This document shows, in pieces, positions 9,376 through 47,539 of a stretch of 64,000 bases of DNA (its first letter is position 1; every line of letters begins with the position of its first letter). The stretch is from an uncultured delta proteobacterium (lineage in GTDB: Bacteria; Myxococcota_A; Polyangia; Haliangiales; Haliangiaceae). Below the pieces are notes generated by a model. That model did not search any database and was not told the origin of the DNA. It was given only the letters and a program-made list of their open reading frames with translations. The DNA lies in NCBI GenBank assembly GCA_963848295.1, contig CAWKDB010000002.1, positions 224,001 to 288,000 of the forward strand, written 5' to 3'. The position numbers and the translations under genes are program-made.

Positions 9376-10029
9376 GACTGGCCTCCAGCAACTAGTTTTT
9401 CGACGTGCTTCGCGAGGATGTCGGTCTCGAGGTTGACGCGGTCGCCGATCGCGAGCGCGCCGAGCGTCGTGTGATCGCGGGTGTGCGGGATGATCGCGAC
9501 CGAGAACGTCTCGCGATCGACCGCGTTGACGGTGAGCGACACGCCGGCGATCGCGATCGAGCCCTTCTCGACGATGTGGCGGAGCAGCGCCGCCGGCGCG
9601 CGCACGCCGAGCACGAGGTTCGCGCCGAGATCGCGGCGCACCGCGAGCTCGCCGGTGCCGTCGATGTGGCCGGTCACCCAGTGACCGCCGAGCCGATCGC
9701 CGAGCCGCAGCGCGCGCTCGAGGTTGAGCTTTCCGCCGACGCGGGCGTGGCCGAGCGTCGTGCAGCGCGAGCGTCTCGGCGCCGGCGAGCACGGTGTAGC
9801 TGTCACGGGCTATTGAACCGCGCCGCCCTTCGGCGCCGCTGCCGGCCGGGGGCAAGCCCCGACCGTCGATCGCCGTGACCGTGAGGCACGCGCCGTCGTG
9901 GCAGATCGATTCGCCGATCGCGAGGTCGGCGAGCGCGAACGCCGCCGGCCGGATCGCGAGCACGAGCGCGTCGCTACGGCGATCCGCGCGCGCGATCGTG
10001 CCGACGTCAGCGACGAGCCCGGTGAACAT
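9372..10029 (-). CDS. ribE: Riboflavin synthase (alpha chain); frameshift near 9765; carries a 19-codon repeat insertion
   Basis: [56 protein letters not shown] and [10 protein letters not shown]. Confidence 0.93.
9811..9870 (-). repeat. Intragenic two-hairpin repeat, copy 1 (in ribE)
   Basis: Minus strand ATCGACGGTCGGGGCTTGCCCCCGGCCGGCAGCGGCGCCGAAGGGCGGCGCGGTTCAATA. Ungapped hand alignment: 49/60 identical to 25050-25109 and 43/60 to 18546-18605. Confidence 0.85.
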
Positions 10030-44164: not shown

Positions 44165-44502
44165 CCAAGCCGACGACCCGAGGCGACGATAATCCGTTCC
44201 TCGTGCTCGGCGTCTCGCCCGACGCCAGCCGGATCGAGATCGAGCGCGAAGCGCAGAAGCTGCTCGGCATGCTCGAGCTCGGCTTTGCCGAGGCGAAGTC
44301 GTTCGACACGCCGCTCGGTCCGCGCGAACGCACCGCCGAGGCCGTGCGCGCCGCGGTCGCCGCGCTGCGCGACCCCTATCAGCGCTTGCTCGCCGAGCTG
44401 TGGGCGCGCAATGCGCCGCCGGTCCGCGAGGCCGCGCCGGTGCGCGAGCCGCCCGGGATCGCGCCGACCGGTCTGCGGCGCGCGCTCGGGTGGAGGCCGT
44501 GA
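44161..44502 (+). CDS. J-domain-like small protein lacking HPD
   Basis: DNPFLVLGVSPDASRIEIER and ALRDPYQR; ATGA overlap with the Hsp70 gene. Confidence 0.7.
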
Positions 44503-46017
44503 TCCGGATGTACGCCCTGCCCTACGTCGCGTTCTTGCGTCTGCATCGCTACGCGCTCGATGCGCGGCGGCGCGATCGCACGTGGCGCTATCTCGCGTGG
44601 TCGGTGCTCGCCGGCGTGACCGGCGGCTTGCTCGTCGGCGTGACGCTCGCGGTCGCCGAGCTGTTGTGGATGGTCGGCTGGTGGCCGCTCGCGGTCGGCC
44701 TCGTCGCGCTGTTCGCCGTGCCGCTGCTCGATCCTCTGCTCGCGCGTCACGTGCTCGTGCCGCTCGGCGCGGTGCGACCTTCGTATTGGGTCGCTCGGCT
44801 CGCGACGATGCGCGACCCCGAGGCCTACGCGTTGTGCCTCGCGGCGTGGGCGCATTCCCACCGGCCGACGCCCTCGGGCGAAGCGTGGATCGCGGCGCGA
44901 CGCGACCGCCGGGTGCCGCTCGGCGATGCCGAGATCGTGACGACCGCGCTCGTCACCGCCGGCCGCGGCGATGCCGAGGCCGCGCGCCAGCTGATGCGTT
45001 CGACCGCGTTCATCGTCGAAGATCATCCGCAAGTGCGCGAGCTCGCCGGCGAGTGGCTCGCGTGCGACGCCGCCGAGCGCGGCGCGTGGCAAGAGCTCGC
45101 CGACGACGGCCGCGCCGCGACGTGGCCCGCGAGCTCGCTGACGTATCTGCTCGAAGGCATCGCGTCTCGCCAGCTCGGCGCGGGCACGCCGGGCGTCGTC
45201 GAGCTCCACGCGCGCTGGCTGATCGCGCCGTTTCGCCGCGCGACCCGGCCGTTGCTCGACCGCGCGCTCGCGGTCGCGCCCGCGCCCGCCGCCGCGACGA
45301 CGGCGAGCGAGCCCGAGCCGATCGCGAACGCCGACGACGATGCTCGCGGCGCCGCACCGCTGCCGCGCGCGATCGCGGCCCAGCTCGCGTTCGCGACCGA
45401 CGCCCCGACGCCGGCCGCGCTCGCTCGTGCCGTCGCCGCGTGGGACGCCGCGCTCGCCGATCCCGCGACGCGGACCTGGCTCGCGCGACGCGCGCTCGAG
45501 CTCGACGCGCCACTCGGCGCAGCCGATCGCGCGCTGCGTGACATCGCCGCGAGCGTCACCGACGAGCTCGGCCGCGCCGCCGATCGGGCCGGCCTATCGC
45601 TGACGCGCGCGCGCGGCATCGTCGGCGACGGCCTGGCGCATCGCTTGCGCCACGGCCGGCTCGACGCGCTCGAAGCCGGCTTCACGAGCTGGGCCGATCG
45701 CCGCCACTCCGGCGCGATCCGCGCGCCGATCGACGAGTGGCGCGAATGGGTCGCGTTGCGCGCGAGCTACGACGCGACCGCCGCCGCGGGCGGGCTCGAC
45801 GTGCGCCGGCTCGCGTTCCCGCACGTCTACCGGACCGCCACGACGATGGCCGCGTGGTTGTGGAACTCGCGCCACGAGTACGCCGTGTCGCACGCGATCT
45901 CGGCGTGGCTGCGGGTGGAGGCGATGGCGGTCGGCGATGCCGAGGCGATCGAGCTGTGCACGCGCAACTGCCAGCCTCGCCGTGCCGACCCGCCTCGGCA
46001 GCGTCAATGCACCTTAG
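44499..46017 (+). CDS. Membrane protein with helical soluble domain; probable frameshift near 45970
   Basis: Two TM segments near the N-terminus; GTGA overlap with the J-like gene; likely stop at 46015-46017. Confidence 0.7.
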
Positions 46018-46028
46018 ATCGGAGATCC

Positions 46029-46487
46029 ATGTCCACGCGCCTACTGCTCTCGCTCGCGTTGCTCGTCCCCGCCACCGCTCGCGCCGACGACAAGGTGCCG
46101 CCCGCGTGCGCCGCGGTCGGAACGCCCCCGGCGTCGGCGAAGATCCAACCGCCGGTGACCGCCGCGCGCATCGCGCTCGCGATGTGCGAAGCGGAGGGCA
46201 AGTTCAACGCGCTCCATCTCACGCCCGATGACGCCGGTATCGCGGCGATCACCGACGCTGCCGCGCCGAGCCTCGCATTGCTAGACGCCGAGGTGCAGCG
46301 CGACGACCCGTTCTGGAGCCCGATCGCGCAGAAGGCGCGTGCGGCGCTGCACGTCGCGATGGCCGTGCGGATGCGCAACGCCGTGCCGCCGATCACGGCG
46401 ACCACGACCACCGCCGAGCTAACCCAGCACGATCAGGCGCACGCGGCGCTCGAGCCGAAGCTCAAGCCGTGGCTCGATGCCCACTAG
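46029..46487 (+). CDS. Secreted hypothetical protein, paralog A
   Basis: Signal MSTRLLLSLALLVPATARA; similar to 46536-46982. Confidence 0.8.
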   Translation: MSTRLLLSLALLVPATARADDKVPPACAAVGTPPASAKIQPPVTAARIALAMCEAEGKFNALHLTPDDAGIAAITDAAAPSLALLDAEVQRDDPFWSPIAQKARAALHVAMAVRMRNAVPPITATTTTAELTQHDQAHAALEPKLKPWLDAH

Positions 46488-46535
46488 CGTCCACCGCACG
46501 ATACCGCTCCCGCCGGATTCTGTCAGGATGCGATC

Positions 46536-46982
46536 ATGTCCACACGCCTACTCGCCACCGTGTTCGTGATCCTAGCCCCGAGCGTTGCTCGCGCGGATGA
46601 TTGTGCCGCCTTGGGCACCCCGCCGGCATCGGCGACGATCCCACAGCCCGCGATCGAGGCGCAGATCTCGATGGCGATGTGTCAAGCCGGGCACGCCCTC
46701 GATGCGCTCAAGGTCACGCCCGACGACGCAGGCATCGCTGCGATGACCGCCGCGACGAAGTCGAGCTTCGACATGCTCGACGACGCGATCGCGAAGAACG
46801 ATCCGTTCTGGAGCCCGGTCGCGCGGAAGGAGCGCGACGGGTTGCAGATCGCGATGGCGGTGCGCGTGCGCGATTCGATTCCGCCGATCACGGCGACGAC
46901 CGTCGGCCAGCCACTCATCGATCACGATCGAGCACACGCCGCACTCGAGCCGAAGCTCAAGACCTGGCTCGCGGTGCGCTAG
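46536..46982 (+). CDS. Secreted hypothetical protein, paralog B
   Basis: Shares GTPPASA, TPDDAGIAA, DPFWSP and AHAALEPKLK with paralog A. Confidence 0.8.
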   Translation: MSTRLLATVFVILAPSVARADDCAALGTPPASATIPQPAIEAQISMAMCQAGHALDALKVTPDDAGIAAMTAATKSSFDMLDDAIAKNDPFWSPVARKERDGLQIAMAVRVRDSIPPITATTVGQPLIDHDRAHAALEPKLKTWLAVR

Positions 46983-47539
46983 AACCGATGCCGCTCAGAT
47001 AAGTGCGTTGACCTTGACCTTGACCTCGACATGAACATCAACGCCACCTTGGACATTGACGTCGACCCGATCAGGTCATCTTGGTGAGCATCGCCACGAT
47101 GGCTTCAAGTGGATCGATGCCGCGCGCGTAGGTCGTCTCGCCGACCAACTTCAGGACTCGCATCGTGTCCAAAGCCGCTGCGGCCTCCATCGCGGAGCCG
47201 CGCGCGTGCGTGTAGAAGCGAGCCTGATCGACGTTCGTGCGACGACCCGCACCCTCGGCGATGTTACGAGGTTGCGACTGCGCGGCGCGGACCAGCTGAT
47301 CGGCAAGCTCGGCATGACCCTTCGGAAGCTCGCCGATGATCTCCAGTGCCAGCGCGAGGAACTCGATCGAGCGTTGATCGACGCGAAGCTTCTGGAAGCT
47401 GAGCATGACCGGGCTATCGGCCACACAACTCTGGAGTTGCGGTGTCAACAGCAACGCCTAAGGTGCCGTGCAAGTTCAGGTTCAGGTTCAGGTCAAGGTC
47501 AAGGTCAACGTTATCTGAGCGGCATTGGCGCTAGAACCG
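46976..47539. mobile_element. Transposase-less inverted-repeat element with target-site duplication, carrying a four-helix-bundle gene
   Basis: Direct repeat GCGCTAGAACCG at 46976-46987 and 47528-47539. Inverted repeats at 46985-47026 and 47490-47528 include (GACCTT)n / (AAGGTC)n hexamers. Confidence 0.8.
47071..47406 (-). CDS. Four helix bundle protein (23S rRNA IVS protein / bAvd-like family)
   Basis: MLSFQKLRV, LADQLVRAAQSQPRNIAEG, FYTHARGSAME and IVAMLTKM. Confidence 0.9.
   Translation of the reverse strand: MLSFQKLRVDQRSIEFLALALEIIGELPKGHAELADQLVRAAQSQPRNIAEGAGRRTNVDQARFYTHARGSAMEAAAALDTMRVLKLVGETTYARGIDPLEAIVAMLTKMT

What the first reader, a model, noticed from the sequence alone, without database searches (positions are those of the whole stretch)
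46976..47539. Four-helix-bundle gene carried in a transposase-less element with long inverted repeats and a target-site duplication
Seen: the 111-aa IVS/bAvd-like gene is bracketed by inverted repeats, CCGATGCCGCTCAGATAA(GTG)CGTTGACCTTGACCTTGACCT (46985-47026) versus AGGTCAAGGTCAAGGTCAACGTTATCTGAGCGGCATTGG (47490-47528). They extend imperfectly inward to about 47052 and 47457 with GTTCAG hexamers. Outside is a direct repeat GCGCTAGAACCG; the true TSD is about 8-10 bp because it overlaps the IR ends. The duplicated CTAG supplies the stop of the left plus-strand gene (46980-82) and of the right minus-strand cytochrome (47531-33), so the empty site would be two convergent genes sharing one CTAG. 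Established: this family has no known function and resembles the DGR accessory protein Avd, which binds RNA. Inference: a mobile unit moved in trans, or one whose fold-back RNA is bound by its own protein.
Basis: partly seen in the sequence, partly recalled or inferred. Interest (0 to 1): 0.85.

Follow-up and report, generated by a model that had tools for sequence, protein, structure and literature searches.

The report
IS4-ended cassette carrying helix-bundle gene
This is a real 542-base jumping element with the ends and 10-base landing scar of IS4 insertion sequences but no transposase, so it is likely moved by a borrowed IS4 enzyme, and its only cargo is a small gene of unexplained function that is strongly conserved across related copies.

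Summary
Confirmed and refined. The element spans 46986-47527, with 17-bp terminal inverted repeats, about 60-bp hexamer arms inside them, and an exact 10-bp duplication GCGCTAGAAC. The genome holds 11 loci of it at different sites, two of them gene-less. Autonomous IS4-subgroup elements in the same genus and in metagenomes have near-identical ends and make the same YTAG-centred 10-bp duplication. No such transposase is in this 85%-complete assembly. It is therefore a mobile insertion cassette, likely moved in trans.

The cargo is the interesting part: a PF05635 four-helix-bundle gene (2GSC/Avd fold) behind a conserved promoter-like motif. It is under strong purifying selection between copies from different sources (dN/dS 0.02-0.07) but decays within this genome. 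Related cassettes sit in IS5- and IS701-type ends, or in none. So the protein is not needed in cis for this transposition; I infer that it serves the hairpin cassette itself.

A group II intron homes 2 bp inside the repeat, an RmInt2-like strategy; this is not a diversity-generating retroelement. No empty allele was found. The scan noted the same design before in other genomes, and the intron in this genome.

The parts
46976..46985 (.). Left copy of the 10-bp target-site duplication (GCGCTAGAAC); its TAG (46980-82) is the stop of the 148-aa + strand gene 46536-46982
46986..47002 (+). Left 17-bp IS4-subgroup-type terminal inverted repeat; position 2 is G instead of the usual A
   Evidence: compared with autonomous IS4 ends
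47003..47066 (+). Left inner arm: 3-nt bulge GTG, then TTGACC / TGAAC-type hexamer repeats; pairs with the right inner arm
47071..47406 (-). Four-helix-bundle gene, 111 aa, PF05635 / TIGR02436; the only full-length in-frame copy among the 9 gene-bearing loci of this genome
47415..47440 (-). Conserved promoter-like motif GCAAC-N16-CGA ending 10 nt before the ATG, with no Shine-Dalgarno; predicted leaderless transcript (function inferred)
   Evidence: 20 of 22 congeneric homologues, background 0.4%
47444..47510 (+). Right inner arm: GTTCAG / GGTCAA hexamer repeats
47511..47527 (+). Right 17-bp IS4-subgroup-type terminal inverted repeat
47520..47526 (+). Homing site of a group II intron (CGGCAT^T, junction between 47525 and 47526); empty in this copy, occupied by intron remnants at the same step in other copies
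47528..47537 (.). Right copy of the 10-bp target-site duplication; its CTA (47531-33) is the stop of the - strand multiheme cytochrome gene

Best explanation
This is a transposase-less element with IS4-subgroup ends and a 10-bp CTAG-centred duplication, present at many sites, which is likely cut and pasted by an IS4 transposase acting from elsewhere.

Shown: ends, duplication, multiple sites, and matching autonomous IS4 elements. Inferred: the DDE transposase binds the 17-bp ends, excises the unit and inserts it by a 10-bp staggered cut at NNN-CTAG-NNN. In this GC-rich genome such sites are often TAG stops, so genes survive the insertion.

The cargo is an older module, an intervening-sequence-type cassette: hexamer arms, own promoter-like motif and a four-helix-bundle gene. 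IS ends have captured it several times. The protein is not needed in cis for IS4-type transposition, but it is kept by selection. My committed guess, about 40%, is that like Avd it binds the cassette's own hairpin nucleic acid and favours the cassette's persistence or spread. A host-useful stress protein is the next option, about 30%. A group II intron parasitises the ends secondarily.
For: Ends match the published IS4-subgroup signature '-AATR--------WTW', DR 10-13 bp (PMC2266710 Table 1, passages).

Autonomous partners: IS4 transposases (PF13006) occur in 29 of 91 genus genomes. Of 25 fetched loci, all show at least one CAATGCC-type end, nearly all with a YTAG/YTAA 3 nt outside. Of the 15 with both flanks, 7 have a perfect and 8 have a 9/10-or-better 10-bp duplication. 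Metagenome element L265 (1515 bp, NF033592 IS4 transposase, E 1e-56) has ends 16/17 and 15/17 identical to the cassette's and a perfect CTAG-centred 10-bp duplication. L261 has a 17/17 identical end beside a short transposase C-terminus match.

Own genome: 11 loci, 88-99% identical. Duplications are 10/10 at 3 loci, 9/10 at 1 and 8/10 at 1; two further loci match crosswise; 4 are untestable.

Other non-autonomous copies: 9/10 or better in 6 of 10 congeneric and 5 of 8 metagenomic elements with both ends. One metagenome assembly holds 18 ends of this cassette with different flanks.

Stops: 9 of 13 outer CTAGs close an open frame of at least 100 codons, against 36% of all CTAGs (the two ends of a site are not independent).

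Selection: dN/dS 0.02-0.07 at dS 0.23-1.15 in 10 pairs among 5 IS4-ended copies; pN < pS in 231 of 231 pairs of 22 congeneric homologues.

The IS4-ended family is one supported clade (98/89), with a shell-less relative next to it. Other clades carry IS5-type, IS701-type or no ends.
Against: No IS4-subgroup transposase was found in this assembly. PF13006 gave 0 hits, and tblastn with 5 congeneric transposases gave 0 hits. The assembly is 85% complete with 8 kb withheld, so the donor may be lost or unassembled.

No empty allele was seen. Cytochrome orthologues in 11 of 11 fetched relatives lack the element, but they also lack the left neighbour gene. Four runs gave no joint that skips the element (low cover).

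Four of 10 congeneric and 3 of 8 metagenomic copies have mismatched flanks (8/10 or less). I ascribe this to collapsed repeats or rearrangement because 7 of 15 autonomous IS4 show the same; this was not tested.

On the protein's role: net charge is only about +2, whereas Avd is described as a positively charged barrel (10.1101/2023.10.23.563531, passages). Within this genome the gene is drifting: 15 replacement to 3 silent changes after removing 5 junction codons and one diverged copy, against 2.9:1 sites; some may be assembly errors. A cassette's own arm was its best-matching partner in only 9 of 30 cassettes, so concerted change of the two arms is not shown.
Confidence: 0.85

Rival explanations
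1. The arm-plus-gene cassette is itself a mobile, intervening-sequence-like unit that moves by an unknown route needing its protein. It landed in a pre-existing IS4 miniature element, and the IS4 shell is a secondary vehicle. This concerns origin and is compatible with IS4-type spread of the present copies.
For: Most congeneric homologues have inverted arms and no IS ends (21 of 34 tree rows were labelled 'none' by a rough motif scan; flanks). The cassette lies inside a complete IS5-family element, between the transposase stop and the right end (L202). At least two IS4, two IS5 and one IS701-type associations fall in different parts of the tree. Twelve further loci of a shell-less family occur in this genome. 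IS4 ends also enclose gene-less fillers.
Against: No cassette-specific duplication or empty IS4 mini-element with a clean junction was found. IS elements could equally have inserted next to or into the arms. No enzyme can be assigned.
Confidence: 0.35
2. The gene is an ordinary host-useful passenger, a small stress-induced protein under an ECF-type promoter. The arms only stabilise or terminate transcripts.
For: The GCAAC-N16-CGA motif is conserved in 20 of 22 homologues; its likeness to ECF promoters is recalled, and a paper search found nothing. Purifying selection is strong. Known mobile insertion cassettes carry varied passenger genes (PMC6199540, passages).
Against: Distribution is patchy: 37 of 91 genus genomes at E <= 1e-15. 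Eight of 9 copies here are broken, and the packaging in inverted arms is constant. This pattern fits a selfish gene better than a host gene.
Confidence: 0.3
3. The element is a retroelement: the Avd-like protein and the neighbouring reverse transcriptase copy the fold-back RNA, as in a diversity-generating retroelement.
For: The model resembles Avd (4DWL and 8UB7, TM 0.64-0.72, E about 0.2). RT-bearing intron remnants abut 6 of 11 loci.
Against: The RT belongs to a group II intron (Rfam RF02005 and RF00029). It splits the IR at GGCAT^TG and has a loop ATGCTG complementary to the last exon bases. Close intron relatives also sit in the end of a transposase-bearing IS4 (L224). No complete intron copy is in the assembly. 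Substitutions among copies are not adenine-biased: 3 of 28, with A at 17.5% of sites. The ends and duplication are IS4-type.
Confidence: 0.04
4. The repeats are a chance or assembly artefact.
For: Several copies in the assembly are deleted or have swapped flanks.
Against: Contigs of other runs show the same junctions, including the left junction at this site and the intron-IR junction in a second study. The family occurs in other genomes and metagenomes.
Confidence: 0.01

Closest known systems
Mobile insertion cassettes (MIC231 of Bacillus cereus, IS231 subgroup of IS4); PMC6199540, passages
   Same: Two IS4-family IRs without a transposase flanking a passenger gene; IS4-type duplication; trans-mobilisation by a cognate transposase (shown for MIC231, inferred here).
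   Different: The ends are of the IS4 subgroup (CAATGCC), not IS231 (CAT). The unit is smaller (542 bp against about 700 bp-3 kb). The cargo is a hairpin-armed four-helix-bundle cassette kept under selection to dS of about 1.
IS4 subgroup of family IS4 (De Palmenaer et al. 2008, PMC2266710, passages)
   Same: End signature -AATR--------WTW and a 10-bp direct repeat with strong target specificity.
   Different: No DDE/YREK transposase; 542 bp instead of 1400-1650 bp; both ends nearly the same sequence and followed by repeat arms.
ORF-bearing 23S rRNA intervening sequences with S23p (Coxiella, Leptospira; PMC4990558, abstract and passages)
   Same: A PF05635 gene in the loop of a stem made by terminal inverted sequences; short tandem repeats near the gene start (heptamers in Coxiella).
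   Different: Not in an rRNA gene. It is multicopy at CTAG sites inside IS ends, with an own promoter-like motif. RNase III processing is untested.
Avd of diversity-generating retroelements (10.1101/2023.10.23.563531 and PMC10053308, passages)
   Same: Same four-helix-bundle fold family. Avd is a pentamer that binds an RNA stem-loop.
   Different: 7-10% identity, near-neutral charge, no template/variable repeat pair seen, no adenine bias, and no DGR-type RT.
RmInt2 group II intron in the inverted repeats of ISRm17 (PMC4615759, passages)
   Same: An intron that uses IS terminal repeats as its homing site.
   Different: The target here is the IS4-subgroup tip, 2 bp from the end, in autonomous and non-autonomous elements.

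Membership tests
Mobile insertion cassette / non-autonomous IS4 derivative | Two IS-type terminal IRs without a transposase gene | tested here: met
Mobile insertion cassette / non-autonomous IS4 derivative | One or more passenger CDS between the IRs | tested here: met
   PF05635 gene
Mobile insertion cassette / non-autonomous IS4 derivative | Ends and duplication shared with an autonomous IS | tested here: met
   L265, L261, L187 and congeneric IS4
Mobile insertion cassette / non-autonomous IS4 derivative | Cognate transposase present in the same genome | tested here: inconclusive
   Not found; assembly 85% complete, 8 kb withheld; two solitary IS4-type ends remain
Mobile insertion cassette / non-autonomous IS4 derivative | Transposition in trans demonstrated | not testable with these tools
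   Needs a transposition assay; no empty allele found
IS4 subgroup (autonomous IS) | End signature -AATR--------WTW | tested here: met
   Right end and other copies meet it; the left end of this copy has G at position 2
IS4 subgroup (autonomous IS) | Direct repeat of 10-13 bp | tested here: met
   10 bp
IS4 subgroup (autonomous IS) | Single-ORF DDE/YREK transposase | tested here: not met
   Only ORF is PF05635
23S rRNA intervening sequence with S23p | PF05635 ORF enclosed by a stem | tested here: met
23S rRNA intervening sequence with S23p | Located within a 23S rRNA gene | tested here: not met
   Lies between two protein genes
23S rRNA intervening sequence with S23p | Excised from the transcript by RNase III | not testable with these tools
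   No RNA holder listed
Diversity-generating retroelement | Avd-like protein | tested here: inconclusive
   Fold match TM 0.64-0.72 at 7-10% identity; closer to 2GSC and 2RLD
Diversity-generating retroelement | DGR-type RT beside a template repeat, with adenine-specific variation | tested here: not met
   The adjacent RT is intron-encoded; no adenine bias among copies
REPIN / RAYT system | Short REP doublets mobilised by a HUH RAYT, without IS-type ends (definition recalled) | tested here: not met
   Ends and 10-bp duplication are shared with IS4

The most novel reading that the evidence does not exclude
The 'intervening-sequence protein' family is the gene of a widespread, undescribed selfish cassette (mirror-image repeat arms, own promoter, Avd-like protein that binds its hairpin). 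The cassette repeatedly takes over the ends of unrelated insertion sequences (IS4, IS5, IS701-type) and is kept by selection there, so rRNA intervening sequences and DGR Avd would be offshoots of it.
Probability: 0.3. Interest if true: 0.8.

Novelty: new variant of a known kind. Interest (0 to 1): 0.5.

Why it matters
How this element moves is ordinary. It matters as a handle on PF05635, a large family with solved structures but no known function outside DGRs. Here the gene behaves like a selfish gene (conserved between lineages, decaying within a genome) in a 542-bp unit with defined ends and an identifiable candidate transposase. That makes the question directly testable: transpose a marked cassette with and without the gene, and test protein binding to its own versus a foreign arm. 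It also shows a three-level nesting of cassette in IS4 shell with an intron in the tip.

Tried and rejected
Transposase in the own genome: PF13006 gave none. PF01609 found other families; I inspected four of the five and saw no such ends, the view of the fifth was cut from the output, and the genome-wide end scan placed no end at any of them. tblastn with 5 congeneric IS4 transposases gave none.

A 16-mer scan of GTDB genomes gave 118 loci, almost all chance; only L117 and L137 had a partner end. Viral contigs: 0 hits.

Empty allele: none in 11 fetched relatives, where synteny is broken, and none in 4 runs at two sites (low cover, so no evidence either way). No RNA holder listed.

Concerted evolution of the two arms: own arm was best partner in only 9 of 30, so not shown. 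A 12-bp or 4-bp duplication was rejected because copies with intact flanks give 10 bp. A DGR or retro-mechanism was rejected.

Rows left out: L274 pairs in dN/dS (a 3-nt deletion shifts my ungapped comparison); L263 (start pattern not matched); L217 and L221 from the tree (alignment under 85 aa); 8 of 30 homologue loci (incomplete ORF). L117 and L139 carry the same sequence and were counted once.

Paper searches linking this family to IS-ended or repeat-armed cassettes found nothing relevant (open-access library only; supplements not read). No complex prediction was run.

Full report
1. Observation. The sequence shows a 542-bp unit, 46986-47527, bounded by 17-bp inverted repeats and flanked by an exact 10-bp direct repeat GCGCTAGAAC. 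Inside each repeat lies an imperfect arm of about 60 bp built from TTGACC / GTTCAG-type hexamers, and the unit folds back on itself (z = -7.5). The only gene is a 111-aa PF05635 / TIGR02436 protein. Its model (pLDDT 73, four helices) matches 2GSC and 2RLD at TM 0.69-0.80 and Avd more weakly at TM 0.64-0.72. The host is a 7.8-Mb, 68% GC genome; earlier scan notes call it a soil myxobacterium, which I did not test.

2. Copies in the genome. There are 11 loci of this family, 88-99% identical: 9 with all or part of the gene and 2 gene-less miniatures of about 80 bp. Every intact end has CTAG (once CCAG) three bases outside it. The duplication is 10/10 at the window, C10:4408k and C10:3467k, 9/10 at C10:4056k and 8/10 at C10:2647k. 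C2:797k and C11:722k have exchanged flanks that match crosswise; a contig of run X3 gives the exact 10-mer. Four loci cannot be tested. Only the window copy has a full in-frame gene; two share a one-base deletion near codon 102 and the rest are truncated or frameshifted. Contigs from other runs show several of the same junctions, so these are not only assembly errors (X1 may be related to the source sample).

3. The shell is IS4. The ends fit the IS4-subgroup signature and 10-13-bp repeat of De Palmenaer et al. (PMC2266710, passages). IS4 transposases occur in 29 of 91 genomes of the genus (the tally includes unpublished G057). Their elements end in CAATGCC(G/A) and duplicate 10 bp around YTAG; 8 of 15 with both flanks match at 9/10 or better. 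A metagenome scan with the cassette's end gave 51 loci: 15 with the four-helix-bundle gene within reach and 6 with an IS4 transposase match, among them the complete 1515-bp element L265 with a perfect duplication. One assembly holds 18 ends of the cassette with different flanks. No IS4 transposase was found in the own assembly, which is 85% complete. This is the arrangement of mobile insertion cassettes, for which trans-transposition has been shown with IS231 (PMC6199540, passages). CTAG is depleted here (3091 against 6955 expected), and 9 of 13 outer CTAGs close long open frames against 36% background. That explains the shared stop codons: the target is often a gene end.

4. The cargo is a separate, conserved module. 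Homologues occur in 37 of 91 genus genomes at E <= 1e-15. Most of those fetched lie between inverted arms, each clade with its own repeat type. A motif GCAAC-N16-CGA ends 9-11 nt before the start in 20 of 22, with no Shine-Dalgarno in any. I read it as an ECF-type promoter for a leaderless mRNA; this is recalled, and a paper search gave nothing. It lies inside the upstream arm, so the gene's own transcript would not form the long fold-back, though read-through RNA from the cytochrome operon could. Selection on the protein is strong: pN < pS in 231 of 231 pairs, and dN/dS 0.02-0.07 among five IS4-ended copies up to dS 1.15 (pairs not independent). Within this genome it drifts, 15 replacement to 3 silent changes after exclusions. 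On a tree of 34 proteins the IS4-ended family is one clade (98/89) beside a shell-less relative. A second IS4-ended cassette (L159), two IS5-ended groups and an IS701-type copy fall elsewhere (labels by rough motif scan; two rows on long branches). In L202 the cassette sits inside a complete IS5-family element. So IS ends and this cassette have joined several times.

5. The intron. Remnants of a group II intron (Rfam) abut 6 of the 11 loci. All 3 of its 5' junctions follow ...CGGCAT, and all 6 of its 3' junctions precede the last two IR bases and a (C)TAG-centred site, although CGGCAT occurs 11,847 times. A loop ATGCTG in domain I is complementary to the last exon bases. Five junctions of close relatives in three genomes are at IS4-type tips, one in a transposase-bearing element; more distant relatives use other sites. 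This is the strategy known from RmInt2 in ISRm17 (PMC4615759, passages). It is a parasite of the end, not the motor. No adenine bias is seen among copies, so this is not a DGR.

6. Mechanism. Shown: ends, duplication, multiple sites, matching autonomous elements, selection on the gene. Inferred (85%): cut-and-paste by an IS4 transposase in trans. Inferred (about 40%): the protein binds the cassette's hairpin, as the Avd pentamer binds an RNA stem-loop (10.1101/2023.10.23.563531, passages), and helps the cassette persist or spread; its near-neutral charge does not favour this. A host-useful passenger is the main alternative (30%). No empty allele and no RNA data were obtained.

7. Novelty. The class of element is known, and the gene-in-a-stem layout is known from 23S rRNA intervening sequences (PMC4990558, passages). 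I found no paper on PF05635 cassettes in IS ends (open-access library only, supplements not read). Earlier notes of this scan describe IS4-ended four-helix-bundle cassettes in other genomes and the intron in this genome. I reached the IS4 and intron readings before consulting them; they agree but are not independent support. Verdict: a real element, a new variant of a known kind, of moderate interest as a tractable test of what this protein family does.

Noticed in passing
G000:C10:3039850-3043989 (L001): A 4.1-kb element with CAATGCC ends and duplication GATCTAGACC, repeated in tandem on both sides. It carries a broken four-helix-bundle gene of another lineage and, by eye only, a RAYT-like fragment, a GDSL-like, an NmrA-like and a TetR-like gene.
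   Followed up: partly
G000:C8 about 9390-9910 (L004): A four-helix-bundle gene between CCCGAG / CTCGGG arrays inside IS701-type ends with TTAG on both sides (signature).
   Followed up: partly
G000: C2:610k, 860k, 1180k, 1462k; C10:511k, 728k, 1111k, 1502k, 4855k; C11:317k, 442k, 698k: A second family: ten back-to-back pairs and two single four-helix-bundle genes among long hexamer microsatellites, with no IS ends seen. Already noted by the scan.
   Followed up: partly
window 44400-46982: The last part of the 695-aa ORF is a paralogue of the 148-aa gene left of the element (73% DNA identity). This may be a tandem pair of small secreted proteins, one fused by a frameshift; no Pfam hit for the 148-aa gene.
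   Followed up: no
L137:184-317: A 134-bp element with IS4-type ends and an 11-bp duplication that encloses a REP-like inverted pair (REP likeness recalled).
   Followed up: no
L294: A different group II intron 5' end sits in the hexamer arm, 12 nt inside the IR of this cassette family; in L232 an intron 3' end abuts a cassette-type arm.
   Followed up: no
G000:C10:1095592 and C10:417797: Two solitary IS4-type ends with (C/T)TAG outside and no partner seen, possible remnants of lost IS4 copies.
   Followed up: partly
G000:C2:795381-797061 and C11:720981-722025: Two different deletions in intron copies share almost the same breakpoint in the RT gene (intron position about 637), and the two loci have exchanged flanks.
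   Followed up: no
L174, L176, L181, L185, L187, L189, L192: Many autonomous IS4 in the genus have a further TAG ten bases outside the duplication, as if the site had been used repeatedly.
   Followed up: no
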